IMG/VR virus record: IMGVR_UViG_3300032213_000971
Location: 1 to 60,505 of that record
Strand: one strand, 5' to 3'
Length of the DNA: 60,505 bases
Source of the DNA: a virus
Taxonomy: Duplodnaviria > Caudoviricetes
The first letter of the stretch is position 1, and the number at the start of each line of letters is the position of its first letter. Of the stretch, positions 2,399-28,788 are shown piece after piece. Made by a program: the position numbers and the translations under genes. Below the pieces are notes generated by a model. That model made no database searches. It had not been told where the DNA came from and saw only the letters and a program-made list of their open reading frames with translations.

Positions 2399-2399
2399 A

Positions 2400-4538: not shown

Positions 4539-4540
4539 AT

Positions 4541-4786: not shown

Positions 4787-4790
4787 TAAA

Positions 4791-5168: not shown

Positions 5169-5171
5169 TTT

Positions 5172-6551: not shown

Positions 6552-6592
6552 CAATTTCAACAAACAACACAAACAACTAACACACTACTATT

Positions 6593-7339: not shown

Positions 7340-7356
7340 TATAAATTTTCCAGAAG

Positions 7357-8583
7357 ATGTACTCACCATTAAAAGCGGTAAATGATTACTTCAGTAGTTC
7401 TGTTGGTAGTAATCAATCCAAACTAAAATCGGTTTGGGCTAATGCAACGTCATCTCCTAAAACAGAATTAGATAAGCGTTCTTATGATACATATCTGAAA
7501 TCTTTGCGATGGGATGAAAGGGATGCAGAGACAAAAAGGATGGATGAAATAAAGAAGCAAGAAAAAATAGATTTCGACAAACAACGAGAAAAAGATCTCT
7601 TGCGTATTGGCCCTACAATTCGTCCCCCTTCGTTTAGTGGGCAAACACCAATCGTAGTAAAGGCACTGGACGCAGGGCAATCTGTTGGCGGAACTAAAAC
7701 AGCAATAACAAACCCAACTGGGACATATTTTGTTGAAAGCACGCAACAAGGGCCAAAGATTTCCGTTGCCACACAACAGGGAACTAGGACTTCCTCAAAT
7801 GCGACAAATATAACTCCCATTGTTAATTATAAAGAAGCACCAGTTGGTTCCTCTCCAATTATAAATAAACTCCTTGTTGATAATGCGAAAAAATTTCAAG
7901 AAAATCTTACAGGACAACTTGTTAATTCTGTCTATTCTGGAATGGCCGCACAAACTACTGCGCCAGAATATTCAATGACAGAAACAGGGATACAGGCAGT
8001 TCAGCCGTTGGTTCCTATCACAAAAGAACAAATAGATAAAAAAATTCAAGAAGACCTTGAATTGGAAAAAAATACAGCATCTCGATTGCAGCAAGAAAAA
8101 GAACTAGAAGCCGCGCAAAAACTTGAAGCACAAAAGCGTGAAACACAAACAAAACTAGACAAACAAGCGAAAATTAATGCTGAAATAGAAGCCAAAAGGA
8201 TCGCAGATGAGAAAGCGGCAGAAGCTGCAAGGTTTAGATCTCAACAACAATTCGATTACGATACGCAAATAGAATCTGCGTTAAAAGCCGCAGAAGGAAA
8301 TAGTTCTTTGGCTAGGAGGCAATTCTCCGCCTATGAAGATAGGCAAAAGACAATGGACGCTGAAAAGTTGGCTCAACAGCGAGCAAAAAGAGGAAACCCG
8401 GCTGGGTACGCTGGAGGATTTGCTCAAAAAGCAATTCAACCAACTCCTGCTACGCCTGCTGCAATTAAAGCCCCTGCAATGAAGGCACCACAACCCCCGG
8501 CAACAATTGAACCAACAGCAAATAAGGTTTCTTCTTCTTTCTTGCCTCCCAAGGTAGATGGATTACAATTTGGCGGAAACTAA
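7357..8583 (+). CDS. Putative internal virion protein, partial paralog of 6593..7339
   Basis: Coiled coil; shares the C-terminal PKVDxLxFGG motif with the upstream gene. Confidence 0.6.
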   Translation: MYSPLKAVNDYFSSSVGSNQSKLKSVWANATSSPKTELDKRSYDTYLKSLRWDERDAETKRMDEIKKQEKIDFDKQREKDLLRIGPTIRPPSFSGQTPIVVKALDAGQSVGGTKTAITNPTGTYFVESTQQGPKISVATQQGTRTSSNATNITPIVNYKEAPVGSSPIINKLLVDNAKKFQENLTGQLVNSVYSGMAAQTTAPEYSMTETGIQAVQPLVPITKEQIDKKIQEDLELEKNTASRLQQEKELEAAQKLEAQKRETQTKLDKQAKINAEIEAKRIADEKAAEAARFRSQQQFDYDTQIESALKAAEGNSSLARRQFSAYEDRQKTMDAEKLAQQRAKRGNPAGYAGGFAQKAIQPTPATPAAIKAPAMKAPQPPATIEPTANKVSSSFLPPKVDGLQFGGN

Positions 8584-8586
8584 CAC

Positions 8587-10410
8587 ATGGCATTCTCATT
8601 CCAACCATTTTCCCCCCTTGCGAATGTTCAGCCAATAACCCTTGGTGGTTTGGATGTTTCCCAAATTAGGCCAATAACACCTTTCGCTGTAGGGAATACG
8701 AGGCCAGAACTCGTTGCCCAAGGAATTGCGTCTGGCACAAAAGACATTGCTTTAGGCATTCTCACAGGCGTAAAAGCCGCAAGAGAGCAAAAACTTCAAG
8801 ACCTCAAGGATCAAAGGGATCTCGCAAAAGAAGTAATCAAGCTAAAAGCTGCGCGAGAGGATAAACAAACTACTCTTGCCGAAACGATGCGGCACCATAA
8901 AGAGTTGGAAAGGTTGTCGCAGGAAAGGATTAAAAACGTCACGCCTCCTGATTGGGGTGGCGATTCATCCGAAACCACAGATACAGAGCAGCCATTGTCC
9001 GCTACGCAACCGCTCAAAACACCAACATCTACGCTCCCGACACAAGATAGATACCAACGTGACACTACTCCTGTTGGCGGGTTTTCTTTCGATACCATCA
9101 ACCTTCCCGAAGACCTGAATAATGATAGCAATCTGATTCAGGCAGATAAAATCCTTGGTGATCTTAATTATCCAGTGCCTTTGGAAACTTCTCCAACACC
9201 GCTTGGAATGAACGCTGTAAATGCTTTAGCAAATGTTGATTGGTCAAGCGTCAGGGCCAACCTTGGAGCAGGGCTTTCTGCTGGAGCAACCCCGGCAAGC
9301 ATTCCTGCAACCATCCCAAGTTTCGCAAAAGCCAAGCCCCCGGTTTCACTTTCTACTTTGGGTGGAGTTTCTAATGAGCAGATGTCGCAGATTCAACAGC
9401 AATTGGCAGAAATGCCGTTGAAATCTGTTTCCCCGGTTGCGGCACCTAAACCTGATGTAACAAAATTTGGTGTTCCTAAATCAGGTTTCAAAACATACGA
9501 GGAAGCTAGGAAATATATTGAATCTCAATCTGGCAACCCTAATTGGTATGCTGAAGCCACGCCAAAACCTGATAAGTCAGGAATGTTTGTTATTCCTTGG
9601 AAGCAACAAGACCCAAGCAAGGCGCAAACACAGGAGATGCAGAAAAAAAGGCTATCCAAGTTGGATCAGGCTGGACTTGCTTCAGAGGTAGATAAGTTTT
9701 ACAAAGATCCTATCTACAAGCTCATGCAGTCGCGCCCGATGCAGATTACGGAATTCAGTTCTTTGATGGACGAGGCATACTCCCCAAACCCCAAAAAGTC
9801 ACGCAGGGCAATCGACCTTGATGCTATTGACAAGTTTGTAATGTTTGCCCGTGGAACGCAGCCAACAGAAGCACAGTATTCAGAAATTCAGAACTGGACA
9901 CAGGGGTACTTAAACGATGTTCGTCAAAAAATAGACAAAGGAGTAGAAGGAGCAAGGCTTTCTGACGCTGATTATGAAAGCATGATGAACCTAATGTATC
10001 GTGCATACAACACAACGGCAGAACTGGTTAATCCTGAAATAGCCGACTTGAGGACGGTGGTTAAGGCAAAGCATCCAGACCTGATGGAACAGGAACTGCC
10101 ATCCACATATATGCCATACGAAGTGCCTTCGTATTTTGAAGACAAAATGGTAGAAGCGCAGCAGCAAATGAAGCAATATCATGCTCTAATGCAGGATGCA
10201 AAAAACAAGAATGATGCAACTACGTTCGCAGAGGCCAAAAAAAAGTACGACGAAGCAAAATCTGAACAGGACAACCTAAACAATTCTTTGACAAAATCTA
10301 AAGCATCACGACACCCATTAAATAAAAAAGCGTTCCGCCGAGGAGGATGGAGGCAGGGACTATTTGGTGGATCTAGCGATATTGGTGCAGCATTACAAAA
10401 TGCCCAATAA
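8587..10410 (+). CDS. Putative internal virion / DNA transfer protein
   Basis: 607 aa, low-complexity N-half and helical C-half, directly before the giant protein. Confidence 0.6.
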   Translation: MAFSFQPFSPLANVQPITLGGLDVSQIRPITPFAVGNTRPELVAQGIASGTKDIALGILTGVKAAREQKLQDLKDQRDLAKEVIKLKAAREDKQTTLAETMRHHKELERLSQERIKNVTPPDWGGDSSETTDTEQPLSATQPLKTPTSTLPTQDRYQRDTTPVGGFSFDTINLPEDLNNDSNLIQADKILGDLNYPVPLETSPTPLGMNAVNALANVDWSSVRANLGAGLSAGATPASIPATIPSFAKAKPPVSLSTLGGVSNEQMSQIQQQLAEMPLKSVSPVAAPKPDVTKFGVPKSGFKTYEEARKYIESQSGNPNWYAEATPKPDKSGMFVIPWKQQDPSKAQTQEMQKKRLSKLDQAGLASEVDKFYKDPIYKLMQSRPMQITEFSSLMDEAYSPNPKKSRRAIDLDAIDKFVMFARGTQPTEAQYSEIQNWTQGYLNDVRQKIDKGVEGARLSDADYESMMNLMYRAYNTTAELVNPEIADLRTVVKAKHPDLMEQELPSTYMPYEVPSYFEDKMVEAQQQMKQYHALMQDAKNKNDATTFAEAKKKYDEAKSEQDNLNNSLTKSKASRHPLNKKAFRRGGWRQGLFGGSSDIGAALQNAQ

Positions 10411-13400
10411 AATGGATTCTTTCGACATCCCCGACATTTCGTCTGATCTTATACACAATAAGGATCACTCCATTTCTGAAAAAAAGAAAAAGAAGGAAGA
10501 TGAATCTGGTTTTGATATTCCTGATGTGGAGTCGGATATTATCTCTATTGAGGATGGGAAAAAGGAAATTAGCCAAATACCTGAAGTAAAAGCTGATATT
10601 GAGGCAGCAAAGTATATGAGTGGAGAGATTGAGCCAACGGCTGCTCCTGCTCAAGAAAAACCAAGGCAAGAACAGTTTTCTCTGACTCCAGCATTGGGTT
10701 CTGGAATTCCATCACTAGAAAAGGATATCATAAAGACAGAACAGGCTCATGAACAGCCCGTTCGCGATATTGCAGATGATTTTGGTGATCAGTTGGAAAA
10801 GACCGGGCCGTGGGCTACAGAACTGCCATTTGTGAGAAAAATTGCCGGGGATCTTTCGGCAGAACAGCGCGAAAAGCTAATTGAGAGGCACAAATGGGTT
10901 TATGGTATGCTTTCCCCAGAGCAACAAGATCAATACTTTGCCGAAAACAAGCATTCTTCTCCATACAACTTTGAAAGTGCCAAAAAGGATGTGGGTTCTT
11001 TCATGCAATGGGTTGGAACTACAGGGAAGGCAGCGGTTGACGTTGGTCTTGATTTTACTGCTGCATACCTTACGGAACCACTAAAAGCAGCGATTGAAAA
11101 TGTGCCACAAAATGATCGCGTAAAATTAGCTAAAGAAGTACTTGATGCTGACATACGCAACGTAACCGGGGCGATACCTAATACGCTTACCGAGTCGTAT
11201 CGGATGCTTAAAAAGTATTACGGTGCTAAAACATTTTCAGACCTTACTGAAAGAATGGGTGATTCTGCATTGAACCCTGACCCAGTATCATTGTTGCCAC
11301 AATTAGCAGGCATTTTTTCATTGCCTACAATGATTGCATCAATGGGTAGGCTTAATGATCCTGATGCTGGAGGCGTAGCAGCAATTGACAACATTAATAC
11401 TTGGATAACCAAAGACGAAACAACTGCCAAAAAGCATTTCAAAAATCGCATGGAATCAGAGGCAGAAGACTCTGCTAATGATTGGAAAACAAGGCAAGGT
11501 TCTGAAAAGCTATCCCCGTGGTCGCAATGGATGTATAGCCCATTTGGACAGGGTGTAATGCTTGAACGAGAAAAAAGCCTTCTGCCTTCTCCTGAAGTAT
11601 ATGCCGCAACATATGGCATTACGGAAGCAGAAGCAGCAGGAAGGATTGAAGCCATTGCAGAAAAAAACGCTGACTACAATAGCCGGGATATAGCGCAGAA
11701 ATGGAACAACGAGTTTGATCAGGCAAAACAGGATTTTGGCGGATTCGTAACTGGGCCGATGGGAATGGGGCCGGGAGGTCTGGCACTAGGTGCCATTGGC
11801 CTCGCAAAGAAACTAGGCGGGGCAATGGAGGGCATCGGTCTTTCCGACGAGGCTTACAATGCGTATATGCGAGCGAAGCAAGCACGCACTATCAAGGCAA
11901 CAGAAAACTCCATTGAAGAGGCCCAGAAGCCACGTTTCTATGAATCTGGAGCGGACTACATAGTCGGTCAGCAGGCCGCTGCTGCCGATTGGGCAAAAGG
12001 AATGCTTGAGAGTATTCCAGAGGGCGCGAGACCATTTTTGCCTGTGGCTTTAAAGTATGCTGGGCTAGGAGGTGTAGGTGGAGCAGCGGGTGCTTTGGTT
12101 GATCCAGAAAGCCCGGGAATGGGTGCTTTGAAAGGTGCTGGTGTGCTTGCAGGGCTGGGCCTTGCACCCAGAGTCGTATCTGACCTTGGAAAGGCTAGGC
12201 GTGCGATTGGTGGTGGCGAGGGTGGTGTTTTCAAGACTGCTGGGCAGGCACCTGAATCAGCGTGGGCAACCCAAAAGTTGTTTGGTGGAAAAACTGGAGC
12301 AGTCGCTGATTATCTTACCGAGAATATAGGGCCACTTGCAAAAGCCGGGGTTCACCTAGGAACGCTGAACCTAGCTATGGGAACTATCAACAGCGACACT
12401 CCCAGCGAACTGATTAGCTCCACCATGCAGGGCATGATGATGGGATCAGGGTTCCACTCCTTGGGTGGCGGATTTAGGCTTTTGCATGAGAAGCCAATGC
12501 GGGAACAGATGGAGGACAGGAAAAAGCGCGATGTGGAGATTTACCATGCCGTGAAATCAGCTTCCCCGGAAACACAGCAGCAGTTGAACCGAATCGGAGA
12601 TTTTGAGAATGCCATCAATCGTTCAAAATTGAACACATTGATGATGGAGGCAAAACTGCAAGATGCATTGCAATCTGGTGACAAAAAGAAAGTCGATGAG
12701 GCGCAGAAGGCTGTAAATGTTGCAAGGGCAATACAGAAATCAATGTTGCGTGCAAACCTCCAGACCCGGAGTGAATATGGTCGTAATTTACGATCATTGT
12801 ATGCCGACATCCATGCTTTGGCAAATGGTGCTAGGAGTGGTCAGGGTCGCCTAAAGATTGAAGTACTGACCAGAGATCAGATCTTTGACCGTATCAATGC
12901 AGAAAACGATGCAAACAATTACGGAAAGACTCCAGAGCAGATGTGGCAAGAGTCTGGGATGCCCGGCAGATACAGCAAGAGCAAAGGAACTGCAATAATC
13001 AACGCTGACAACATTATGCGTAGGCAGACTCTTTTTGGTGAGTCTCCAACACAAGCCCTGCGGCATGAAGGTTTTGGTCATGGTCTTTACAACATCCCTG
13101 AATTTAGAAAGATGAATCAGGCCGCAGAGAGGCTTTTGTTTGATCAGCAAGAACGTGCGCTGAATGGTGATATCATCAAGCAAAGCAAAGGACGCTACAG
13201 CGACGATGATCTAATTTCCATGTACATGAACAACTACCTAAAAGGTAGTGATGTGGAGAAAATCCAATATGCCCGTGATATGGGGCTGTGGGATGAGGCA
13301 AACAACACCCTGAATCGTGAAGCCACAGTTCAGTACATGAAGGAAGAGGTTATTGCTGAACTAAACGCAGGAAACCTGAAATACGGCCTTGGTGCGCTTA

Positions 13401-16400
13401 AAAAGCAGGGTGGAGCAATTGAACAATGGCTGGAACACAATAAGGACAGGAATATGGTTGCTAGTGCCTTGTCCAGCCTCACCGGGATGGGTGCAAAGCC
13501 AATTTACAGCGAACTGCTAGAAACTGAATTCAGCCCTGAAGTAGTTGCTGCCAACAGGGAAGCACTTAAAAGCCTATCCAAGTATAATGGTAGGTTTGAA
13601 GAGTCAACGGAAGAGCAGTCTGGGACTGAACTTCCTGAAAAAGTTTTGAGTTCTGATTCTGCTCTTCGCACCCGTTATTCGCTTAACGGTGGCGAGTATA
13701 AGACGCAAATGGTGGCGGAAGTACGCGATAAGAACGGCAATCTAGTAGGAAGGCCGCTCCCGGTGGGAGATAATGCCGCCGAAGGATCTTGGGTGCATGA
13801 TGAGAACACAAACACAATCCAGCGCACCCGTGGATATGGTCAATTGCAAGAATCAGCAGCTATTCAAGTGCCTCTTGGTGGAAAAGTTACCGTCAAACGT
13901 GACTTTGTTTATGAACCAGATGGCATTACTCCAATCAGGAATTCCGATAAGGATATCAACACTTTAGAGTCGAACCGTGTTGAGGCTATTCGTCAGGCAC
14001 TTGAGACCGACGACCGTTTTGGTGGTCAGGGTCTGATCCCGGTGTCAGCAGATGGCGAAAGCTATAGCGGCATGCTTTCACCAAAGCAGCGCAAAGCGAT
14101 TGAGGATCTCCCGGAAAGCATTGTTCCGCTTTCAATGAAGGAAAAGATCTTTGAGCTTAATGATGCACTTGCAATGGATGATGGAAGCACGTTCGACATC
14201 GATTATGCACCTCGTTTGCAGGGCAAGAAGTACAAAGGTCGCCGGGCAGAGATTTACGGCATGATCCCGGTGAATTGGGGGCTTTCCAAGGCGGGTAATT
14301 TCTACATTCGTTCCGTATCTCTGGGTGCTTTGTTCCGCAAGGTAAAGGCCCGGAAAAAGTTGCTGCCCGGATGGTATGAGCCTTGGGGTGGGTCTACGGA
14401 GGCATTTATGGACGAGTTCCGTAATACCTACCTAAAGAACACCAAGGAAGGTAAGCCCGGGTGGATGGGCCTTGACCCGTCGAAACCTACGGAACAGACA
14501 CCTCTAGCAACGCTGAAGCAGAACAAGTTCAACGACATGCTGAACCTCGCGAATCGTCCCCGGGAGATCACTCCTCGCGACCCAGATAAGCGTAAGAGCA
14601 AGGCTGGAGAGGTTGATACTTTGTGGAGGTCATTCAGGGTGGACGCTATTGCTGACATGCTTAATACCCCGGAACGCAAATACCCGTTTGATGCAAAGCG
14701 TGTGTATGAGAATTTAATGCCACGGGAGGTTTCTGAAGAACTGACCCCACGGGATATTGAACGCGAAACAGGTAAAAATATTGATTTTGCGATTCCGCCT
14801 GAAGAAGAAGCAGCAAAGACTGCGTTGTACGAGAACAAGCGGCCACAATTTGGTGCAGCACGCACACTAAAAGAAGGTCATCCTGTATCTCTGCGAATCG
14901 ATATCCCTGCGTACAAGCGTGGAACCTATGTTGTTACTGTTCATGAGCAATCTGGGTCTAAAGGTGGAGTTGGCAGCGTTGTCGGGTACGACACGCATGC
15001 CCGGGTATACGACCCCGTATTTTCGTCCGACGAGAGGCTTGCTGGCAAAGTGGCTGCTGGAGGATCAAAAACTCCTCTAGCGACCGTTATGGGCGATTTC
15101 AACCCATCCCGGGAGATTCCCGCAGATATCGAAAGCTGGACACCGATTGGTTTTGACCCAAAGGAGCATAGTTTCTTTTATGATAAGGCAACTGACCGTC
15201 CTGTGATTGGTGGCGATGAGGCATACAGCGTAGGCAACACGGTATTTGTTAAAAACCCTGTATATGGTGAAAAGTCTGATTTTGCATACATGCCCCGTGA
15301 AGTAGCAGAAAGAGACGATGCACACCGCAAAGCTATTGATTCAGGCGACATGGAGACTGCACAAAGGATGGTTGACGAGGAAGCAGCTAGAAAAGGATAC
15401 GAAACTAAAGCATATCACGGAACAGACGCAGAAAAAATCGATGTGTTTGACAAAGATATGTTTGGTGAATCAACCGGGCAAGGTGACATCGGAGATGGTT
15501 TTTATTTTGCAACAACACCAGAGTTTGCTTCGGAATTTGGGAAAAACGTAATGCCTGTTTATTTGCAAAAAGGCAAATACGCTACCAATAAAGATTTGCT
15601 AGACCCAGACATTCAATCAGCAATTGACGACGACATGGGTTTCAAATCCGTTGCAGAGGTTTTGGCAGAAAAGGGATTTGATGGAATTAAATATGATCGT
15701 GGGAACAACAGGGTTGAGATGGTCGTATTCGACAATAATAAAGTCAAATCCGCAGATCCAATCACACGCGACGATGCAGGAAATGTGATCCCCTTGTCGC
15801 AACGCTTCAATCCAGAGAAAAATGACATTCGTTATCAGCCCCGGGAGGTTCAGGAAAAACTAGGTGCAGAAGAAGATCAGGAGCCTATGGGATATAAAAT
15901 CCCTACTATTCAGGCAAATATCCCTGAAAGCGTGGACAATGCAGCTACCTTGGAAAACGCATTTACAATTGCAGGAGGCCAAAAATGGCAAAAGGGAAGG
16001 GATCTTAAAGTTGCTTTGCAGCAGAATGTAAAAACTGAAGCTGCAAAATCCGGGGTAGATGTTTCTGTTCCATCACCACAAACTACCGAATATCTAGTTC
16101 GTGTTGGGAAGAAAGACGCTTTGGTTGCACTCAAGCAAAACGCAAATGCTATTGGATGGTACGATATAAAAACACGCCTAGCTATTAGGATTATGTCACT
16201 CATGCACCCTGAAATCATGACTGATGAAAATGCTAGACTTGCATTTACATGGGCATTAGCGACGACATCTAATGGATTAAAAGTAGGAAAAAATTTCCAG
16301 TTGGCAGAACGTGCGTACAGAAAATACAAAGAGACAGGGATTATGCCTAATGATATTGGCACAGGTACAGCAAAAGCTGCTATTAACGAATCTTTGGATC

Positions 16401-18049
16401 TTTTTAATAAACTATCCAAAGAATGGGGAACAGACAATCTGCGCCAATTCATGCAAACACCTTTTAGCGTTGCTGAAATCGCAGCTATCGACAAATCCCT
16501 AAAGCCGGGAGGTGAACACTCTCCAACTGTAGTTAAAGGTTCTGCTATTTTAGGGCCGAAGATTGGAAACGGGTTTTTTAGCAACCTGTACGGAAACTTT
16601 GATGCTCTTACAATGGATCGTTGGCTTGTGCGTACATGGGGACGCTGGACAGGAACCCTAATCGAAAGCGATCCGATTAATACTGAAAATCAACGCAATC
16701 GCTTGCAGGCAGCAGTACAAGCAATGACACCAGAGCAGGCCGCATCTATGAGCGAACTCGTTGGAAAGGATGTTGTAAGCACCCCAACAGATGAATTGGC
16801 TGTAGCAATTCAAAAGGCTTCTATGAAGCCTGAAAAGCGTGAGCAGATGCCAGACGAATTTAGGCTTTCTGGGAATGGACTTGCAAAGTATCTGGACGGG
16901 CAAAAAGAGGCACCAGCGGGGCCACATGAACGTACATACATCCGTTCTGTCTTCAGCCAAATACTTGATGAGCTACACCAAATTCCTGAATACAAGGATC
17001 TTACAATGGCAGATCTTCAAGCGGTTTTATGGTACGGAGAAAAGAGGTTGTATGAGACAGCAAAAGTAAAGATTGACGACGAGAACGACCCAGAGGGATA
17101 CTCTGATGAGGAGGCTCCTGACTACGCAAACGCAGCCGCAGAGGTTGCATTGGCAAACGGGATTTCTCAACGAAAACTTAATAATGCAATAGCACTAGAA
17201 AATGGACGCACAACAAATACACAATCAGGAGTTCAAGGGACTGACCAGCCCGGAGAGCAGGCAGCGTCTGGAGCTTTTACTCCAAGCAAAAAACGCTCCT
17301 TCGTCCAGACAAGGGCAATCGCTAGGGTTCGATCCAATAGAAGTGGCGATGAAGAACAATCCTTCTCTTACTCGCGAGGAAGTGGAGGAGGAGGCCAGCG
17401 CACACGGGTTCTAAAATCACTTGGTGTTCGTTATGTAGACGAATTCAAAGGTGGAGCGGGTCTAAAGCGGGTATTAAAAAACAACGGTGTTGATGCACCT
17501 TCGTATTTAGAAATTGATAACTCCGATTCTGCGAGCGTTCAGAAATTTGCTGACATGATTCAGGAAAGCAAAGAATCATCGCAATGGGGATCATCTGTGT
17601 ATGTGTATCCTAATGAGGATTACGCAAACATGCGTTTATTGATTGCAAAAGATGGCAAGTCAGGTGCTGCCGTTAAAAAAGATGGAGACATTGTTTCTGT
17701 ATTCAGCCATTCCGATAGCAAGGCTGGTCGTGCAGTACTTGAAGCTGCTATTGCCGCTGGAGGAACAAAGTTGGATTGTTTTGATACGGTTCTTCCTTCA
17801 TATTACGCTGCTCATGGGTTTAAAGCTGTTTCCCGGTTAAAATGGGACGATTCCCAAGCACCAGAAAACTGGGACAAGTCTGTTTATGGAAAACACAACA
17901 ATGGTGAGCCAGATGTCGTTTTCATGGCGTATGACCCATCTTATTATGGTACATACTCTATCAAAGACGGGAAAATTGCAGAATCCTATGACCAAGCATT
18001 AGAAATTCAAAAACGTGCTGTTAACAAATTGAAGAAAGCATCACAGTAA
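10400..18049 (+). CDS. Giant polyvalent internal virion protein (zincin-like HExxxH, ADP-ribosyltransferase, HhH-glycosylase-like and GNAT-like domains)
   Basis: HEGFGH at 13064-13081; AYHGT..GDGFYF..GFDGI..EMVVF (ART-PolyVal-like) at ~15300-15840; GPKIG..F..NL.G..TMDRW at ~16550; GGTKLDCFD..YYAAHGF near the C-terminus. Start is ATG 10400 or 10412. Confidence 0.85.
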   Translation: MPNKMDSFDIPDISSDLIHNKDHSISEKKKKKEDESGFDIPDVESDIISIEDGKKEISQIPEVKADIEAAKYMSGEIEPTAAPAQEKPRQEQFSLTPALGSGIPSLEKDIIKTEQAHEQPVRDIADDFGDQLEKTGPWATELPFVRKIAGDLSAEQREKLIERHKWVYGMLSPEQQDQYFAENKHSSPYNFESAKKDVGSFMQWVGTTGKAAVDVGLDFTAAYLTEPLKAAIENVPQNDRVKLAKEVLDADIRNVTGAIPNTLTESYRMLKKYYGAKTFSDLTERMGDSALNPDPVSLLPQLAGIFSLPTMIASMGRLNDPDAGGVAAIDNINTWITKDETTAKKHFKNRMESEAEDSANDWKTRQGSEKLSPWSQWMYSPFGQGVMLEREKSLLPSPEVYAATYGITEAEAAGRIEAIAEKNADYNSRDIAQKWNNEFDQAKQDFGGFVTGPMGMGPGGLALGAIGLAKKLGGAMEGIGLSDEAYNAYMRAKQARTIKATENSIEEAQKPRFYESGADYIVGQQAAAADWAKGMLESIPEGARPFLPVALKYAGLGGVGGAAGALVDPESPGMGALKGAGVLAGLGLAPRVVSDLGKARRAIGGGEGGVFKTAGQAPESAWATQKLFGGKTGAVADYLTENIGPLAKAGVHLGTLNLAMGTINSDTPSELISSTMQGMMMGSGFHSLGGGFRLLHEKPMREQMEDRKKRDVEIYHAVKSASPETQQQLNRIGDFENAINRSKLNTLMMEAKLQDALQSGDKKKVDEAQKAVNVARAIQKSMLRANLQTRSEYGRNLRSLYADIHALANGARSGQGRLKIEVLTRDQIFDRINAENDANNYGKTPEQMWQESGMPGRYSKSKGTAIINADNIMRRQTLFGESPTQALRHEGFGHGLYNIPEFRKMNQAAERLLFDQQERALNGDIIKQSKGRYSDDDLISMYMNNYLKGSDVEKIQYARDMGLWDEANNTLNREATVQYMKEEVIAELNAGNLKYGLGALKKQGGAIEQWLEHNKDRNMVASALSSLTGMGAKPIYSELLETEFSPEVVAANREALKSLSKYNGRFEESTEEQSGTELPEKVLSSDSALRTRYSLNGGEYKTQMVAEVRDKNGNLVGRPLPVGDNAAEGSWVHDENTNTIQRTRGYGQLQESAAIQVPLGGKVTVKRDFVYEPDGITPIRNSDKDINTLESNRVEAIRQALETDDRFGGQGLIPVSADGESYSGMLSPKQRKAIEDLPESIVPLSMKEKIFELNDALAMDDGSTFDIDYAPRLQGKKYKGRRAEIYGMIPVNWGLSKAGNFYIRSVSLGALFRKVKARKKLLPGWYEPWGGSTEAFMDEFRNTYLKNTKEGKPGWMGLDPSKPTEQTPLATLKQNKFNDMLNLANRPREITPRDPDKRKSKAGEVDTLWRSFRVDAIADMLNTPERKYPFDAKRVYENLMPREVSEELTPRDIERETGKNIDFAIPPEEEAAKTALYENKRPQFGAARTLKEGHPVSLRIDIPAYKRGTYVVTVHEQSGSKGGVGSVVGYDTHARVYDPVFSSDERLAGKVAAGGSKTPLATVMGDFNPSREIPADIESWTPIGFDPKEHSFFYDKATDRPVIGGDEAYSVGNTVFVKNPVYGEKSDFAYMPREVAERDDAHRKAIDSGDMETAQRMVDEEAARKGYETKAYHGTDAEKIDVFDKDMFGESTGQGDIGDGFYFATTPEFASEFGKNVMPVYLQKGKYATNKDLLDPDIQSAIDDDMGFKSVAEVLAEKGFDGIKYDRGNNRVEMVVFDNNKVKSADPITRDDAGNVIPLSQRFNPEKNDIRYQPREVQEKLGAEEDQEPMGYKIPTIQANIPESVDNAATLENAFTIAGGQKWQKGRDLKVALQQNVKTEAAKSGVDVSVPSPQTTEYLVRVGKKDALVALKQNANAIGWYDIKTRLAIRIMSLMHPEIMTDENARLAFTWALATTSNGLKVGKNFQLAERAYRKYKETGIMPNDIGTGTAKAAINESLDLFNKLSKEWGTDNLRQFMQTPFSVAEIAAIDKSLKPGGEHSPTVVKGSAILGPKIGNGFFSNLYGNFDALTMDRWLVRTWGRWTGTLIESDPINTENQRNRLQAAVQAMTPEQAASMSELVGKDVVSTPTDELAVAIQKASMKPEKREQMPDEFRLSGNGLAKYLDGQKEAPAGPHERTYIRSVFSQILDELHQIPEYKDLTMADLQAVLWYGEKRLYETAKVKIDDENDPEGYSDEEAPDYANAAAEVALANGISQRKLNNAIALENGRTTNTQSGVQGTDQPGEQAASGAFTPSKKRSFVQTRAIARVRSNRSGDEEQSFSYSRGSGGGGQRTRVLKSLGVRYVDEFKGGAGLKRVLKNNGVDAPSYLEIDNSDSASVQKFADMIQESKESSQWGSSVYVYPNEDYANMRLLIAKDGKSGAAVKKDGDIVSVFSHSDSKAGRAVLEAAIAAGGTKLDCFDTVLPSYYAAHGFKAVSRLKWDDSQAPENWDKSVYGKHNNGEPDVVFMAYDPSYYGTYSIKDGKIAESYDQALEIQKRAVNKLKKASQ
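17202..17414 (+). CDS. Candidate overprinted small protein (alternate frame inside the polyvalent gene)
   Basis: 70-aa ATG ORF with A-rich leader and a helical C-terminus (NPSLTREEVEEEASAHGF). The main frame is low-complexity linker over the same interval. Confidence 0.5.
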   Translation: MDAQQIHNQEFKGLTSPESRQRLELLLQAKNAPSSRQGQSLGFDPIEVAMKNNPSLTREEVEEEASAHGF

Positions 18050-18060
18050 TAAAAAAACAC

Positions 18061-19368
18061 ATGAAAGACATCAAAGACCCATCCGATGTAGTTGCGCTAG
18101 TAGTCGATAACGGATTATTTGTGGAACTTGCCCTGAAGCTATCAAAGACTTTTAAAAAGGTTTACTATTACGTCCCTTGGGAGTCGGCTTTTGCGAAGAT
18201 GAATCTGGCAAAAATTGGCCTAGGCATGGAAGGTCTTGAGGTTGTAGACAGCATCTATGGGCCTCATTTCGACGAGGTTGACCTTTTCTGCTTCCCGGAC
18301 ATCTACATGGGATGGGAGCAGGAGCATCTTGAAAAACTTGGCAAGGTTGTATGGGGATCACGCACAGGCGAGTGCTTGGAGCTAAACCGGGAGGGCATGA
18401 AAGAAATCCTGACAGCATTAGATATGCCTGTCGGGAAATTCTGGCACATCAAAGGCATGGCAAACCTCCGGGCCTTCCTCAAGGAGCATAAGGATGTCTA
18501 TGTAAAGATCGACAAGTACCGGGGAACATTTGAGACATTCCACGCTAAAAGCTACAAGGAGGTGGAGCCGAAGCTGGACGAGGTAGAATTCAATCTTGGT
18601 GCGTTCAAGCACATCATTGAATTCACGGTTGAAGCTGCGCTCCCGGATCGCGTTGAGGTTGGAACTGACTGCTGGGCTATTACGTCCCCAGAAGGCGAGT
18701 GCCAGTACCCGGAACACCTTATCTCTGGCATCGAAATCAAGGATGTTGGATTTGCCAGCATCTTTAAGAAGTACAAAGACCTCCCGGAGGTAGTTACCCG
18801 CTTTAACGAGCGAATGAAGCCAGTATTTGCTGCCTACAACTGGCGAGGATTTGTTAGCACAGAGGTTCGTATCGGAAAGGACATGGAGCCTTATATGATC
18901 GACCTGTGCGCTCGCGCCCCCTCGCCTCCTAACGAGCTTTACCAAGAGCAATACGCTAACCTAGCAGAGTGCATCTGGTATGGTGCCAATGGCATCGTCG
19001 TTGAGCCAGCGGCCAAGGCAAAATTCGGTGCCGAGATCATGCTGCATAGCTCATGGGCCGACAAGGGCTGGCAACCAATCTCGTTCCCAGAAGAAATCCG
19101 CGACATGGTCAAGCTCCGTAACGCTACGGTCATCGATGGCGTTTATTACGCGATCCCACAAGCCTGCGGACTACCTGAATGCGGTGCTGTGATTGGCCTT
19201 GGAAATACGATGAAGGAAGCACTCGACAACGCAGTTGAGAATGCCGAACAAATTACTGGGTATTACCTTGAGGCGAAGATGGGAGCTATCGACAACATCA
19301 AGGAAGAGGTAAAGAAACTCGACGAGCTTGGTCTGAATATGTACGCCGACGATGAGAATAATTCTTGA
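18061..19368 (+). CDS. ATP-grasp ligase (PurD/GAR synthetase-like fold)
   Basis: LELNRE.MKEIL...DMPV, YVKID, and STEVRI....YMIDLCARAPSPP, which matches the ATP-grasp E-x-N-x-R-like region. Confidence 0.75.
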   Translation: MKDIKDPSDVVALVVDNGLFVELALKLSKTFKKVYYYVPWESAFAKMNLAKIGLGMEGLEVVDSIYGPHFDEVDLFCFPDIYMGWEQEHLEKLGKVVWGSRTGECLELNREGMKEILTALDMPVGKFWHIKGMANLRAFLKEHKDVYVKIDKYRGTFETFHAKSYKEVEPKLDEVEFNLGAFKHIIEFTVEAALPDRVEVGTDCWAITSPEGECQYPEHLISGIEIKDVGFASIFKKYKDLPEVVTRFNERMKPVFAAYNWRGFVSTEVRIGKDMEPYMIDLCARAPSPPNELYQEQYANLAECIWYGANGIVVEPAAKAKFGAEIMLHSSWADKGWQPISFPEEIRDMVKLRNATVIDGVYYAIPQACGLPECGAVIGLGNTMKEALDNAVENAEQITGYYLEAKMGAIDNIKEEVKKLDELGLNMYADDENNS

Positions 19369-19750
19369 GTCGATTCCGCCGAAAGAAATCCGATACAGCA
19401 CATGTGGTGACTGGCGTTTCAAGGACGATGGAACGCTAGTCGTCAATGTTCCGCTTTTTGAGAACAATGATGATTCGGCATTTCTTGTCGCGCTGCACGA
19501 ACTTGTTGAAGCATGGTTGTGTCGTCGGGATGGTGTGACTGAAGAAGAAGTTTCTGCATGGGACAAAAACAACCCTGCGCTGGAAGAACCGGGAGATAGC
19601 AAAAACGCACCATACCATCGGCAGCACTCTTACGCGATGCTGATTGAAAAGACCCTGTGCAAGCTCATGAGGAAGAATTGGGCGCAACACCAGAGGTGGG
19701 TAGAGGATTCTGCAAATGCGGTTGACCGGGCGCATGCCGGGGCAGAGTAG
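19352..19750 (+). CDS. Zincin-like putative metallopeptidase
   Basis: YSTCGDW and LVALHELVE motifs plus downstream YHRQH and E; overlaps the ATP-grasp stop. Confidence 0.55.
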   Translation: MRIILESIPPKEIRYSTCGDWRFKDDGTLVVNVPLFENNDDSAFLVALHELVEAWLCRRDGVTEEEVSAWDKNNPALEEPGDSKNAPYHRQHSYAMLIEKTLCKLMRKNWAQHQRWVEDSANAVDRAHAGAE

Positions 19751-19810
19751 AAAGCCGGGCAGGCTGTAGAGCCTGTATTTATGCGGCTCAAAAAAAACTA
19801 AAAAAAAGCA

Positions 19811-19860
19811 TTGACCGGGATGCCGCTTGGGATTAGTATCCCTATTGACGGTAGAAACAC
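19811..19860 (+). promoter_or_regulatory. Sigma70-type early promoter P1
   Basis: A-tract, then TTGACC-17bp-TAGTAT, then TGACGGTAGAAACAC element. Confidence 0.75.
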
Positions 19861-19890
19861 AACCAACACCAACCCATAAATAAATACGCC

Positions 19891-20439
19891 ATGTACGCCA
19901 ACGAAATCACCATCCCAGCAGCATACTTTGACGAAGTCGCTGCTCAAGACCTGAACGCTCTGCCACAAGATCAAGAGATCCGCCTCAAAGGCAAAGGCAA
20001 GCAATACGTCATCAACCGCAACGATCCGAAGCTCGCGGTCTTCATCGGCATCGCCAAGCTGGAGTACAAAGACAGCGGCTCTGCTTCCGCCGAAAACCTC
20101 CTCCGCGCTCTGGAAAAGCAGGGTGTTCCTACTGGCGCAAATCTCCCGGTGCGCGAGGCCAAGCCTGTCACCCGGAAGACCAATGCCATCGGGGATCGTC
20201 GCAACCTGATCGTCACGATCACCCCGGACGGAGATCTGATCCTGCGCCCTGCTGGTCGCCGCAAGAGCATCAGCATTAGCCTCTCGACGGTCTACACGCT
20301 CGCAGTCAACGCCGAGGCTCGCAAGGCTATCGCAGTAGCCAAGGCCGCTCGCAAGGAGCGCAAGGCCCAACGCCGGGCCGAGCGTGATGCTGCCGTGCTG
20401 GCATTCAAGGCCAACCCCAGCCAGATCACCCTGCGCTGA
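19891..20439 (+). CDS. Early hypothetical protein, basic C-terminus
   Basis: First gene after P1; strong C-ending codon bias. Confidence 0.8.
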   Translation: MYANEITIPAAYFDEVAAQDLNALPQDQEIRLKGKGKQYVINRNDPKLAVFIGIAKLEYKDSGSASAENLLRALEKQGVPTGANLPVREAKPVTRKTNAIGDRRNLIVTITPDGDLILRPAGRRKSISISLSTVYTLAVNAEARKAIAVAKAARKERKAQRRAERDAAVLAFKANPSQITLR

Positions 20440-20449
20440 TCACTCACCC

Positions 20450-20475
20450 GGCCCCGGGTTCGATCCCCGGGGCCA
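20450..20475 (+). other. T-loop hairpin (tRNA minihelix-like)
   Basis: GGCCCCGGG-TTCGATC-CCCGGGGCC-A: perfect 9-bp stem with a TPsiC-like loop. Confidence 0.7.
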
Positions 20476-20494
20476 CAACCACACCAATAAATCC

Positions 20495-20764
20495 ATGAAT
20501 CGATACATCGCAGCCACCGTCAAGTACCTCCCGGTTACAGACTCCCGGGGTTCCCGGGTGAAGATCACACTTCCCCGCTTCAAGGTCTCCAAGACCATCC
20601 CGTTCGATCACCAGTACAACAACAGCGAGGACATCGCGATTGCGTTCCTGAATGACAACGGTGTATCCATCGAAGGCACCGCAGAACTCGACAACGGCAG
20701 CGTCCTGATAATTGATTGGACGGTCGCTAACCGATTCGCTCTTGAGCAGCTATCCAAATTCTGA
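20495..20764 (+). CDS. Early hypothetical protein
   Basis: ATG after A/C-rich leader; TVKYLP.TDSRGSRVK motif common in small phage early proteins. Confidence 0.75.
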   Translation: MNRYIAATVKYLPVTDSRGSRVKITLPRFKVSKTIPFDHQYNNSEDIAIAFLNDNGVSIEGTAELDNGSVLIIDWTVANRFALEQLSKF

Positions 20765-20766
20765 TC

Positions 20767-21453
20767 ATGAGCATCCACAGCACACCAGCAGTTGCCCGGG
20801 TATACAGCGATGGCGGACGTTCGGCTGTAGACAAGGCGTACAACGACACCAATGCCTGCACGGTGAACGCACTAGCTAACTGCACCGGGTGGGATTACGC
20901 GCTGTGCCACGACATTGCAGCGATGTCCGGGAGGTGGAATGGCAAAGGCCACAATCCTGTCCAGTTGCTAAAGCTGGCAGGAAGGTTTGGCGCAAAGAAC
21001 CGCAAGCTGACCCGTATAACGTACAGCAACCCGTGGACGCTTCAGAAGTTCATTAAAAAGAACCCGACCGGGAACTTCTACGTCTGCACATCTCATCACG
21101 CATTTTCCATTGTTGACGGTGTCGTCAAGGATTGGCTGCACAACGGTGACATGTGCCGACTTGTTCAAGTCTGGAGGATCACCGGGACTGTCTACAACGG
21201 ACGCAAGCCCAAGCGTCCAGTAGTTACGAAAAAGCCCCGGAAGCCACGGGAAAAGCGTGTAGAGTACACGGTTCGCCTTCGTGACAAGGAAGGTGACGCA
21301 TACGATGTCTGGTATTATGAAGACCGGGCAGAGGCTATTAAGGAGGCCCGGGAGTTTCCGCTAGACGATGTGACTTGGGCAGTAGATGTCGAGAGCGTGA
21401 GCATCGGTAGCTACAACTGGAAGATCATCTACAGCAGGAGCCGCAAATCATGA
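20767..21453 (+). CDS. Early hypothetical protein (CTVNAL...HAF motif)
   Basis: DGGR..CTV.AL and HAFSIVDG motifs suggest a Cys/His papain-like fold; tentative. Confidence 0.7.
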   Translation: MSIHSTPAVARVYSDGGRSAVDKAYNDTNACTVNALANCTGWDYALCHDIAAMSGRWNGKGHNPVQLLKLAGRFGAKNRKLTRITYSNPWTLQKFIKKNPTGNFYVCTSHHAFSIVDGVVKDWLHNGDMCRLVQVWRITGTVYNGRKPKRPVVTKKPRKPREKRVEYTVRLRDKEGDAYDVWYYEDRAEAIKEAREFPLDDVTWAVDVESVSIGSYNWKIIYSRSRKS

Positions 21454-21713
21454 ATGACCAAGCCGTCATGCGCTTCGCTGCGTACCTAATCCAGTCTTCC
21501 CGGGCAATGGATAGAAAGTGGGCATACGTCCCGCCGCATCAGTTCCCGTTACGAGAGGTGCCGGGAACATGGGAACCATCAGGACGCTCAAATTTCGATT
21601 CCCGGGAAATGGCATATCACGGCACCGGGAGCCTTGCCCCGACCGGGAATCCTCACAGGTGCCTTACTGCCTGCCTACATCACCGTGCTTGGATAGCAAC
21701 AGACCCTCTATGA
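21450..21713 (+). CDS. Hypothetical protein
   Basis: ATGA coupling at both ends. Confidence 0.55.
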   Translation: MNDQAVMRFAAYLIQSSRAMDRKWAYVPPHQFPLREVPGTWEPSGRSNFDSREMAYHGTGSLAPTGNPHRCLTACLHHRAWIATDPL

Positions 21714-21859
21714 ACATCACCCAACAGATCCTGTGCCGCCGAGAATTCGCAGAATGGGCCTTAAAACACCGCCTCCCGGTGAAAAGGTATCCCGAGTACG
21801 GCAAGCGCATATTCGCCATTTACGAGGCATCGTGGAAGCGGCATCATAACGTCAAATGA
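21710..21859 (+). CDS. Small hypothetical protein
   Basis: ATGA-coupled; starts MNITQQ. Confidence 0.55.
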   Translation: MNITQQILCRREFAEWALKHRLPVKRYPEYGKRIFAIYEASWKRHHNVK

Positions 21860-28756: not shown

Positions 28757-28788
28757 TCACCCAACAACCAAACCCAACACATACATAC

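What the first reader, a model, noticed from the sequence alone, without database searches (positions are those of the whole stretch)
14717..15850. (M/Q)PREV motif marks each domain junction in the polyvalent protein
Seen: LMPREV (14717), YMPREV (15290) and YQPREV (15836) bracket the unknown domain and the ART domain exactly. The DNA differs at synonymous sites, so selection acts on the peptide. Inference: cleavage sites for the in-cis zincin that release effectors as a polyprotein, and/or microhomology joints for cassette exchange.
Basis: partly seen in the sequence, partly recalled or inferred. Interest (0 to 1): 0.7.

Follow-up and report, generated by a model that had tools for sequence, protein, structure and literature searches.

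The report
Cassette joints in a phage polyprotein
The repeated (M/Q)PREV peptide is this phage's own version of a short mark that separates swappable effector modules in giant injected phage proteins, and it predicts where such proteins might be cut into pieces.

Summary
MPREV, MPREV and QPREV (M/Q codons at nt 14717, 15290, 15836) lie in one 2561-aa ORF (10364..18049). They sit at the points where similarity to relatives starts and stops.

PREV itself is only a local dialect. It is shared by four proteins (window, P0268, P0003, P0358) of the 25 counted from the 26-protein family list. The conserved feature is a joint, D/G-hydrophobic-x-[F/Y] | [M/S/Q]-P. [FY]MP occurs 94 times against 5.3 expected in those 25 members, and 90 of the 94 lie in the cassette region.

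Cassette gain, loss and swapping at this joint is shown:
- The closest relative lacks exactly the 182-aa domain between the first two motifs.
- P0003 has a kinase cassette inserted after the first motif.
- Of 202 joint pairs with at least 80% identical upstream sequence, 91 diverge within 0-2 residues of the joint and 99 stay collinear.

Free-standing homologues end at ...DIRY or begin with MP....

An HExx(x)H module lies upstream in 171 of 202 large relatives (6 expected). Its predicted fold resembles zincins only at middling scores. Cleavage was not tested.

Verdict: a real cassette joint; the processing-site role is plausible but unproven.

The parts
10364..18049 (+). Giant ORF of 2561 aa. 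The library copy P0002 starts at the ATG at nt 10400 and is 2549 aa. It is a phage polyvalent, presumably virion-borne and ejected, protein.
   Evidence: The window is a complete 60505-nt virus record with direct terminal repeats.
12941..13393 (+). Zincin-like module. HEGFGH (aa 901-906, nt 13064-13081) lies in a predicted helix (aa 895-909). The invariant Glu995 (nt 13346-13348) lies in a later helix (aa 985-1006).
   Evidence: H901, E902, H906, E913, Y991 and E995 are invariant in 20-25 relatives. AF2 model: pLDDT 74. VIA best rows are zincin-like folds at Z 4.3-6.7. No Pfam hit.
14555..14569 (+). RPREI (aa 1398-1402), a fourth PRE[VI] that is not a joint.
   Evidence: alignments to relatives run through it to aa 1455-1470.
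14714..14731 (+). Joint 1, LMPREV: the end of the conserved N-terminal module and the start of the first cassette.
   Evidence: N1450 and P1453 are invariant in 20 relatives. Four relatives' alignments end at 1455-1470. P0003 has a kinase cassette inserted after it; in L002 a stretch of about 90 aa follows it.
14717..15289 (+). It is a distant relative of Pfam Phage_L5_gp82.
   Evidence: Pfam E = 0.0095 in the window. PF25735 is precomputed for many relatives. The cassette is absent from P0268. Its structure prediction failed (pLDDT below 50).
15287..15304 (+). Joint 2, YMPREV.
   Evidence: P1644 is invariant in 20 relatives. A helix starts at R1645 in the model.
15290..15835 (+). ART cassette (aa 1643-1824). 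The Pfam ART-PolyVal core is aa 1678-1798 (nt 15395-15757).
   Evidence: AF2 pLDDT is about 95.
15746..15835 (+). Conserved C-terminal tail of the ART cassette, KSADPITRDDAGNVIPLSQRFNPEKNDIRY. It is the most conserved stretch of the region.
   Evidence: Invariant K, A, D, G, I, P, L, S, R, F, I in 20 sequences. pLDDT 94-96 and packed on the domain. The DNA encoding it is 65% identical across 50 tails.
15833..15850 (+). Joint 3, YQPREV.
   Evidence: Similarity to P0268 ends 10 residues after it.
16031..17113 (+). Cassette D4 (about aa 1890-2250), of unknown function. It is found at other positions in other polyvalent proteins.
   Evidence: P0219 is a free-standing form that starts MPDG....
17492..17932 (+). 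C-terminal cassette D5 (aa 2377-2523), PHROG 2563.

Best explanation
The three (M/Q)PREV peptides are the local form of a family-wide mark between effector cassettes in giant phage polyvalent proteins.

Anatomy. The left half of the mark, D/G-hydrophobic-x-[F/Y], is the last structured part of one cassette. The right half, [M/S/Q]-P, is the first two residues of the next cassette; the Pro caps its first helix. In this phage's small clade every cassette start also carries R-E-V-x-E.

Shown: cassettes are gained, lost and swapped exactly at this mark, and free-standing homologues end or begin there.

Inferred (about 40%): the mark is also a processing site. The bond between [F/Y] and [M/S/Q] would be cut by the conserved HExx(x)H module that lies N-terminal to the cassettes, between the Gly/Ala-rich hydrophobic segments and the cassette array. 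The cut would most plausibly happen while the cassettes are unfolded during or after ejection. It would release effectors with the same ends as the free-standing forms.

The stated confidence is for the whole statement. The cassette-joint part alone is about 0.9.
For: Domain boundaries coincide with the motif.
- Alignment ends and starts peak at aa 1646-1650 and 1826-1830.

The joint consensus holds across unrelated domains.
- U end, n=110: D60, F70, R41/L27/A22, Y57/F48, M49/S23/Q8, P66, then noise.
- ART end, n=129: D109, I119, R110, Y79/F36, S56/M30/Q22, P41, then noise.
- The U-end and ART-end profiles align only over the last 12 columns.

The mark punctuates the cassette region in this family.
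- In 25 proteins sharing the N-terminal module, [FY]MP occurs 94 times against 5.3 expected, and 90 of the 94 lie after aa 1400.
- FMP is the most over-represented tripeptide there (56-fold, n=87). Spacing between sites peaks at about 190-230 aa.
- Pfam domains fall inside the intervals between joints in P0364 and P0363.

Cassettes are exchanged at the joint.
- P0268 is 99% identical over aa 1150-1460. It reads NLMPREVSEE|FMPREVAERDDA and lacks the 182 aa 1460-1641. Its ART cassette is 88% identical over its last 150 aa, and the two proteins become unrelated after DIRYQPR(E/D)V.EKLGA.
- P0003 has Kinase-PolyVal between MPREV and MPREI.
- Of 202 joint pairs with at least 80% identical upstream 150 aa, 99 stay collinear for more than 60 aa, 91 diverge within 0-2 residues and 12 fall in between.
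- 14 of 28 upstream clusters are followed by two or more unrelated downstream classes, 36 classes in all.

The joint matches natural protein ends.
- 6 of 355 proteins end exactly at ...DIRY, and only 1 ends 1-8 residues later.
- 8 proteins start with MP followed by a cassette's normal N-terminus.

A candidate protease is present.
- HExxH or HExxGH occurs in 171 of 202 relatives of at least 1400 aa, against a shuffled mean of 6.15 and maximum of 12. Among the 137 relatives in which both a motif and a joint were found, the first motif lies before the first joint in 103 and after it in 34.
- H, E, H and a downstream E are invariant.
- The best VIA rows are mostly zincin-like folds: YbeY-like Z 6.7, anthrax lethal factor catalytic domain Z 5.9, PPEP-2 Z 4.7.

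Other consistent points.
- The +1 residues (M, S, Q, A) are not destabilising N-terminal residues under the bacterial N-end rule. This rests on established knowledge and is an inference.
- Joint tails are more alike within a protein than between proteins: 1.20 against 0.63 identities out of 5. Pairs with at least 4 of 5 identical are 19 of 293 within proteins and 13 of 3000 between.
Against: - No cleavage data exist for this protein or any relative that I could find.
- The HExx(x)H module matches no Pfam, NCBIfam or PHROG peptidase model.
- None of the 120 listed long relatives carries PF18818.
- Foldseek finds nothing at E of 0.001 or better. VIA scores of 6.7 or less are in the range the tool calls common for unmatched models.
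- The window's motif is HEGFGH, with one residue more than the canonical HExxH.
- In the AF2 model, DIRY and the tail are packed on the ART domain (pLDDT 83-96) and REV starts a helix. That leaves only M/Q-P as a hinge, which is a poor protease substrate while folded.
- The helix variant of the HExx(x)H motif does not co-vary with the joint tail. MPER occurs with both HETSH and HEALGH, and the HEGGGH proteins P0359 and P0360 lack MPREV at most joints.
- In most family members the residues after M-P differ between joints of one protein.
- In 50 tails from 45 of 80 IMG/VR loci, no stop codon follows within 10 residues, so the split state is rare.
Confidence: 0.45

Rival explanations
1. The mark is a joint only, with no cleavage. 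It would be a fusion scar plus structural caps: the aromatic residue anchors the end of one domain and M-P caps the first helix of the next. It persists because only recombinants that join cassettes end to end at these caps fold correctly. The protein would act as one chain of beads.
For: - The AF2 model shows the tail and the Tyr packed, with helices starting right after the Pro.
- The joint equals the termini of free-standing homologues.
- Mosaic breakpoints are razor-sharp.
- From passages of Iyer et al. 2017 (PMC5512222): N4 virion RNA polymerase, ArdC and TraC1 are reported as packaged or transferred unprocessed although they carry a metallopeptidase domain.
Against: - The same 6-8-residue motif ends unrelated domains with no wider homology, which fold constraints alone do not predict.
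- M at +1 and P at +2 stay conserved far beyond what a neutral scar would keep.
- 'Ghost' cassettes of 9-24 aa keep both halves of the mark.
- An HExx(x)H module is nearly universal upstream and would need another role.
Confidence: 0.3
2. The mark is a short linear motif read by another factor. That factor could be a host or other phage protease, or a partner that binds each cassette end for packaging into the capsid or for threading through the tail.
For: - The 30-aa tail before the joint is the most conserved part of the ART cassette.
- It is also the natural C-terminus of free-standing proteins.
- Joint tails are more alike within proteins than between them.
Against: - PHROGs and Pfam recognised no prohead or other protease: PHROGs was run on 30 other ORFs and Pfam on 10 of them.
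- The tail is predicted to be packed on its own domain rather than free.
- The U cassette has no comparable tail.
Confidence: 0.12
3. The mark acts during translation. The ATG at +1 would be an internal start that yields separate cassette proteins, or I-R-x-x-P would be a pause site (the same spacing as the R and P of the SecM arrest motif, recalled) that lets each cassette fold before the next is made.
For: - M is the commonest +1 residue; MP follows 154 of 465 sites.
- Free-standing forms start with this M.
- A conserved stretch of about 30 aa precedes the joint, which is roughly the length of the ribosomal exit tunnel (recalled).
Against: - Joint 3 of the window has CAG (Gln), and S is the commonest +1 residue after ART tails.
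- A Shine-Dalgarno yardstick could not discriminate, because real ORF starts of this phage score as poorly as the joints.
- SecM-type arrest needs small residues where the joint has Y/F and M (recalled).
Confidence: 0.08
4. Chance recurrence of a 4-mer in a long protein.
For: Some 4-mer recurs at least 3 times in 1151 of 2000 shuffles.
Against: - The motif coincides with homology breakpoints.
- It is conserved at joints of P0268, P0003 and L001/L002.
- [FY]MP is enriched family-wide, 94 observed against 5.3 expected.
Confidence: 0.02

Closest known systems
Polyvalent proteins of phages and conjugative elements (Iyer, Burroughs, Anand, de Souza, Aravind 2017, PMC5512222; abstract and passages read)
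   Same: A giant multi-domain protein of a phage with an ART-PolyVal domain. Relatives carry Kinase-PolyVal and GNAT domains. The authors predict processing by in-cis zincin-like peptidases, and they liken neighbouring small ORFs to recombining cassettes.
   Different: The word 'linker' occurs 0 times, and the passages I read define no inter-domain motif or scissile bond. The window's HExx(x)H module is not matched by Pfam MPTase-PolyVal. The supplementary architecture lists could not be seen.
MARTX toxins of Vibrio (recalled, not looked up here)
   Same: Works alike under the processing reading. Effector domains are arrayed in one chain behind a membrane-inserting part. They are released by an in-cis protease that cuts between domains. 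The effector set is reshuffled by recombination between strains.
   Different: MARTX toxins use a cysteine protease activated by a host cofactor and cut after Leu. They are secreted bacterial toxins, not phage virion proteins, and share no sequence similarity. This is not a member.
Polymorphic toxin joints such as the CdiA VENN motif and the Rhs PxxxxDPxGL motif (recalled; Zhang et al. 2012, PMC3482391, seen only in the search listing)
   Same: A short conserved peptide marks the point where conserved sequence gives way to swappable cassettes.
   Different: Those systems have one joint before a single C-terminal toxin, usually with an immunity gene. Here up to 8 joints occur in series and no immunity gene is evident.
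Prohead-protease sites in packaged phage proteins (T4 gp21 L/I-x-E, phiKZ gp175 S/A/G-x-E; recalled) and viral polyprotein sites
   Same: Short site motifs at which packaged or polyprotein precursors are cut. P-R-E would fit a cut after Glu.
   Different: The family-wide conserved part is [F/Y]|[M/S/Q]-P, not x-x-E. No prohead protease was recognised in the window.
Stx phage phi24B gp47 (preprint 10.64898/2026.04.10.717836; passages read)
   Same: A 2811-aa polyvalent protein with a metallopeptidase domain. It was detected in virions by mass spectrometry and proposed to be an ejection protein.
   Different: Its domains differ (LPD5, LPD1, LPD38, MuF-C). In the passages I read, the authors assign the peptidase to cell-wall degradation and report no processing of gp47. 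Its joints were not examined here.

Membership tests
Polyvalent protein (sensu Iyer et al. 2017) | Two or more distinct effector-type domains in one polypeptide of a phage or conjugative element | tested here: met
   ART-PolyVal at 52.9 bits against a cut-off of 31.2, plus an L5_gp82-like domain, PHROG 2563 and further modules shared with other giant proteins. The source is a complete virus record.
Polyvalent protein (sensu Iyer et al. 2017) | Delivery with the DNA (virion-packaged) | not testable with these tools
   Only gene position is available: the gene follows ORFs of which one matched tail or virion structural PHROGs. The analogy to phi24B gp47 is the other support.
MPTase-PolyVal zincin (Pfam PF18818) | Match to the family model | tested here: not met
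   No hit at E up to 1 in P0001. The family is absent from the precomputed Pfam lists of the 120 listed relatives and of the 26 family members.
Zincin / gluzincin metallopeptidase fold | HExxH on a helix plus a downstream Glu as third metal ligand | tested here: inconclusive
   The window has HEGFGH (HExxxH), while homologous positions in relatives read HExxH. H901, E902, H906 and E995 are invariant in 20-25 sequences. Both lie in predicted helices.
Zincin / gluzincin metallopeptidase fold | Structural similarity to solved zincins | tested here: inconclusive
   VIA wide gave Z 6.7 (rmsd 4.4, 114 aligned) to YbeY-like 1oz9, Z 5.9 (4.4, 159) to the lethal factor catalytic domain and Z 4.7 to PPEP-2. 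Most top rows are zincin-like, but the scores are middling. Foldseek found nothing at E of 0.001 or better.
DPP III / M49 peptidases (HEXXGH and EEXXAE motifs, recalled) | The two motifs and the fold | tested here: inconclusive
   The patterns HEGFGH and EEVIAE are present in the sequence. VIA gives only Z 3.2 to DPP III 5zum. Relatives have plain HExxH. Not filed as a member.
Protease cleavage site | Observed cleavage products or neo-termini | not testable with these tools
   No proteomic data were found. The only indirect support is that the joint matches the termini of free-standing homologues.
Recombination joint of cassette systems (VENN-like) | Conserved upstream sequence with unrelated downstream sequence starting at the motif | tested here: met
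   91 of 202 pairs diverge within 0-2 residues. 14 of 28 upstream clusters have two or more downstream classes. The P0268, P0003 and L002 comparisons agree.
Recombination joint of cassette systems (VENN-like) | DNA homology at the joint long enough for recombination | tested here: inconclusive
   Window PREV cores share exact runs of 5-9 nt, and L001/L002 share 15 nt at two joints. Tail DNA is 65% identical, with exact runs of at least 20 nt in 85 of 1220 pairs. The DNA of P0268 could not be fetched.

The most novel reading that the evidence does not exclude
Giant phage polyvalent proteins would be self-processing polyproteins with a shared site grammar, [F/Y]|[M/S/Q]-P. After ejection the N-terminal membrane-inserting part would stay at the envelope. 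The adjacent HExx(x)H module would cut each still-unfolded cassette free as it emerges. The same mark would let phages swap effector cassettes as plug-in units. Clade dialects such as MPREV.E and MPER would be tuned site variants.
Probability: 0.3. Interest if true: 0.8.

Novelty: new variant of a known kind. Interest (0 to 1): 0.6.

Why it matters
Polyvalent proteins are common: 5043 representatives matched this region at E of 0.001 or better. How their many domains are deployed is still an open question.

A defined joint gives three things:
- Exact predicted scissile bonds, so the 2017 autoprocessing hypothesis can be tested directly by N-terminomics or by HE mutants.
- A rule for parsing unannotated cassettes out of giant phage proteins. 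The intervals between joints delimit domains, including ones with no family yet.
- A concrete picture of how phages reshuffle injected effectors.

If no cleavage occurs, the joint still defines natural fusion points for modular proteins.

Tried and rejected
Searches that found nothing or were unavailable
- Megablast of nt 1-20000 against phages gave no match.
- tblastn of aa 1380-1900 against phages gave 5 records, none covering at least 80% of the query.
- The tail peptide gave 1 record against phages and none against plasmids.
- The search for related loci with the N-terminal module in viral contigs found none. P0210 in genome contigs found none. The DNA of P0268 and of the free-standing genes was therefore not seen.
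- PDB sequence search and profile search found nothing meaningful.
- The ESM Atlas gave two errors and no result.
- NCBIfam had nothing for P0001.
- A literature search for six peptide strings found 0 papers.
- 'ART-PolyVal' found 2 papers on a eukaryotic ADP-ribosyltransferase family; only the listing was seen.
- Jamet et al. 2017 (PMC5576092) has 0 hits for linker, cleavage or junction.

Ideas tested and dropped
- A mutated stop codon as the origin of S or Q at +1: x-M-P follows the aromatic residue in only 2 of 465 sites.
- Co-variation between the HExx(x)H helix variant and the joint tail looked promising. It was not upheld in the 26-member family.
- The Shine-Dalgarno yardstick for internal starts was uninformative.
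- Homology between the U-end and ART-end tails: only the 12 joint columns align.

Structure and complex predictions
- The U domain failed to fold (pLDDT below 50).
- Complex prediction of the zincin-like region with the ART tail plus joint gave no answer (score 0.00). This is neither support nor evidence against binding.
Full report
**What is there**

The window is a complete 60505-nt virus record with direct terminal repeats. All large ORFs lie on the + strand. PHROG hits include an Erf-like annealing protein, an exonuclease, primosomal and helicase-loader proteins, a small terminase subunit and tail-like proteins. PHROGs (30 other ORFs) and Pfam (10 of them) recognised no protease.

The finding lies in one 2561-aa ORF, 10364..18049. 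Pfam sees only ART-PolyVal (aa 1678-1798, 52.9 bits against a cut-off of 31.2) and a weak Phage_L5_gp82 match (aa 1536-1627, E = 0.0095). PHROGs adds family 2563 at aa 2377-2523.

**The observation**

MPREV, MPREV and QPREV begin at nt 14717, 15290 and 15836 (aa 1452, 1643, 1825). They are preceded by L, Y and Y. A fourth PRE[VI] (RPREI, aa 1398-1402) lies inside the N-terminal module.

The codons differ at synonymous sites. Pairwise, 10-12 of 15 nt are identical, with exact runs of 5-9 nt.

PREV is expected 0.025 times per protein, and 0 of 20000 shuffles reach three copies. However, some 4-mer recurs three times in 1151 of 2000 shuffles, so recurrence alone proves little.

Position is what counts. 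I searched aa 1380-1900 against 1.84 billion representatives and got 5043 hits at E of 0.001 or better. I then re-aligned the whole protein to the best 149. Alignment ends peak at aa 1646-1650 (38) and 1826-1830 (51). Starts peak at 1646-1650 (47) and, more broadly, at 1451-1485.

**PREV is a dialect; the conserved mark is [F/Y]|[M/S/Q]-P**

PRE[VIL] is absent from 130 of 150 representatives (25 sites against 13.5 expected). What recurs is the sequence around it:

| Position | U domain end (n=110) | ART domain end (n=129) |
|---|---|---|
| -3 | D 60 | D 109 |
| -2 | F 70 | I 119 |
| -1 | R 41, L 27, A 22 | R 110 |
| 0 | Y 57, F 48 | Y 79, F 36 |
| +1 | M 49, S 23, Q 8 | S 56, M 30, Q 22 |
| +2 | P 66 | P 41 |
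| beyond | noise | noise |

Profiles of the two domain ends align only over the last 12 columns, which are the joint itself. The mark is therefore a short motif shared by unrelated domains.

The residues from +3 to +15 are enriched in D, P, E and S and depleted in W and L.

A last protein search with aa 1150-1460 found 26 proteins that share the N-terminal module, mostly on contigs of 56-64 kb. In 25 of them:
- [FY]MP occurs 94 times against 5.3 expected from shuffles.
- 90 of the 94 lie after aa 1400.
- FMP is the most over-represented tripeptide there (56-fold, n=87).
- Spacing between sites peaks at about 190-230 aa.
- There are up to 8 marks per protein.

In P0364 and P0363 the Pfam GNAT and ART domains fall inside single intervals between marks.

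MPREV itself is found only in the window protein, P0268, P0003 and P0358 (the protein of locus L002). In that clade the consensus extends to [M/Q]-P-R-E-V-x-E.

**Cassettes are exchanged at the mark**

The closest relative, P0268, is 99% identical over aa 1150-1460. It reads ...KRVYENLMPREVSEE|FMPREVAERDDA.... This means:
- It lacks exactly aa 1460-1641 of the window protein, which is the body of the U domain.
- It keeps the first eight residues and the last aromatic residue of that cassette.
- Its ART cassette is 88% identical over its last 150 aa.
- After DIRYQPR(E/D)V.EKLGA the two proteins are unrelated.
- P0268 has a further ...DYSY|MPREV joint between two modules that the window lacks.

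P0003 carries Kinase-PolyVal (aa 1512-1675) between MPREV and MPREI, ahead of its U domain. In L001/L002 a short stretch of about 90 aa separates the first and second MPREV.

Across all stored proteins:
- 460 joint pairs have at least 60% identical upstream sequence. In 304 the downstream sequence is unrelated, and in 156 it is similar.
- Of 202 pairs with at least 80% identical upstream 150 aa, 99 stay collinear for more than 60 aa. Another 91 diverge within 0-2 residues after the aromatic residue, and only 12 fall in between.
- These pairs are not independent. Counted by cluster, 14 of 28 upstream clusters are followed by two or more unrelated downstream classes, 36 classes in all.

**The mark equals natural protein ends**

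Six of the 355 stored proteins end exactly at ...DIRY, and only one ends 1-8 residues later. Eight start with MP followed by the usual start of an ART, U or D4 cassette.

Two caveats apply. These are database gene calls whose DNA I could not inspect. Also, in 50 tails from 45 of 80 IMG/VR loci, none is followed by a stop within 10 residues, so the split state is rare.

**DNA homology**

The PREV cores give little microhomology in the window, though two joints of L001/L002 share 15 identical nt.

The 105 nt that encode the ART tail are 65% identical across 50 tails. Exact runs of at least 20 nt occur in 85 of 1220 pairs. The 105 nt after the joint are 28% identical, which is random.

The phage encodes an Erf-like annealing protein and an exonuclease. 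From general knowledge, such proteins can use short, imperfect homology. That link is an inference.

**The in-cis protease candidate**

The window has HEGFGH at aa 901-906. Homologous positions in relatives read HExxH or HExxGH.

One of these motifs is present in 171 of 202 relatives of at least 1400 aa, against a shuffled mean of 6.15 and maximum of 12. Among the 137 relatives in which both a motif and a joint were found, the first motif lies before the first joint in 103 and after it in 34.

H901, E902, H906, E913, Y991 and E995 are invariant in 20-25 relatives, down to 22% identity.

AlphaFold2 on aa 800-1110 gave pLDDT 74 and pTM 0.71. It shows two strands and a helix, then the HEGFGH helix (aa 895-909), and E995 in a later helix.

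Foldseek found nothing at E of 0.001 or better. VIA-align against 48161 chains gave:

| Structure | Z |
|---|---|
| YbeY-like protein | 6.7 |
| Certhrax N-terminal domain | 6.0 |
| Anthrax lethal factor catalytic domain | 5.9 |
| YbeY (two entries) | 5.5 and 5.2 |
| Pro-Pro endopeptidases (two entries) | 4.7 and 4.3 |
| ArdC, DPP III, selecase, Wss1 | about 3 |

Most top rows are zincin-like, but the scores are in the range the tool calls common. No Pfam, PHROG or NCBIfam peptidase model matches. None of the 120 listed relatives carries PF18818. I therefore call a zincin-like fold plausible, not established.

**What the fold of the joint says**

AlphaFold2 on aa 1440-1850 failed for the U domain (pLDDT below 50). 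It gave pLDDT of about 95 for the ART domain and its 30-aa tail.
- Y1824 lies in a beta-bridge.
- Helices begin at R1645 and R1827, directly after the joint Pro.

So in the folded state DIRY is packed, REV is the first helical turn, and only M/Q-P is a hinge. This favours a structural reading. It means a protease would need an unfolded substrate. That condition is plausible for a protein that must pass through a phage tail, but that is an inference.

**Other tests**
- Joint tails (+1 to +5) are more alike within a protein than between proteins when the downstream sequence is unrelated. The means are 1.20 and 0.63 identities; pairs with at least 4 of 5 identical are 19 of 293 and 13 of 3000.
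- In most members of the 26-protein family the residues after M-P differ between joints.
- The HExx(x)H helix variant does not co-vary with the tail.
- A complex prediction of the zincin-like region with the ART tail gave no answer.

**Literature**
- Iyer et al. 2017 (PMC5512222; abstract and passages) define polyvalent proteins and predict processing by zincin-like peptidases. They liken nearby small ORFs to recombining cassettes. 'Linker' occurs 0 times, and the passages I read name no joint motif.
- A 2026 preprint on phage phi24B (passages) finds a 2811-aa polyvalent protein in virions and proposes that it is ejected. In the passages I read it reports no processing of that protein.
- Six peptide strings from the joint occur in 0 papers of the library.

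**Verdict**

The cleavage idea remains a reasonable but untested inference, at about 40%.

The main correction is one of scope. The meaningful unit is not PREV. It is a family-wide mark, [F/Y]|[M/S/Q]-P, that separates swappable cassettes.

Noticed in passing
window about 11680-12460 (aa about 440-700 of the giant ORF): Gly/Ala-rich hydrophobic stretches (for example GPMGMGPGGLALGAIGLAKKLGG and LGGVGGAAGALV...GAGVLAGLGLAP) lie N-terminal to the HExx(x)H module. They look like membrane-inserting segments of an ejection protein.
   Followed up: no
P0268 aa 1440-1448; P0371 aa 1478-1494; P0376 aa 1476-1499: 'Ghost' cassettes: two joints lie only 9, 17 and 24 residues apart (for example MPREVSEEF|MPREV). 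They keep a cassette start and end with no domain between them.
   Followed up: partly
many relatives, for example P0193, P0200, P0240 (alignment A4): 40 stored proteins end 57-58 residues after their last joint. They share a conserved C-terminal mini-domain, MPSPDSAMPGAYSF.GGYRALPGKAKGSLRLYGPAGSLIG...AQRILRRKNK. It is not present in the window.
   Followed up: no
window 14555-14584 and 14717-14758: PRE[IV] followed by TPRD occurs twice about 55 residues apart (RPREITPRD and MPREVSEELTPRD). TPRD of the first copy is invariant in the four closest relatives.
   Followed up: no
window 28663-29400 and 29617-30675: An Erf-like single-strand annealing protein and an exonuclease. This is a recombination pair that could promote the short-homology cassette exchange.
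   Followed up: no
window 17360-17374 (aa 2333-2337, SFSYS): A degenerate joint-like site (EEQSFSYSRGSGGGG) lies about 40 residues before the last cassette. It has no M-P and was not verified as a boundary.
   Followed up: partly
window 20001-22000: GC content rises to 0.564, against 0.36-0.54 in the rest of the window.
   Followed up: no
L003 (Pseudomonas phage F116, gp60): The 1649-aa gp60 has an ART domain that ends ...QVKSAVGNRGTFDASTPDILF|SRSG, a short-tail form of the joint. It also has two HExxH motifs. F116 is a cultured phage in which processing could be tested.
   Followed up: partly
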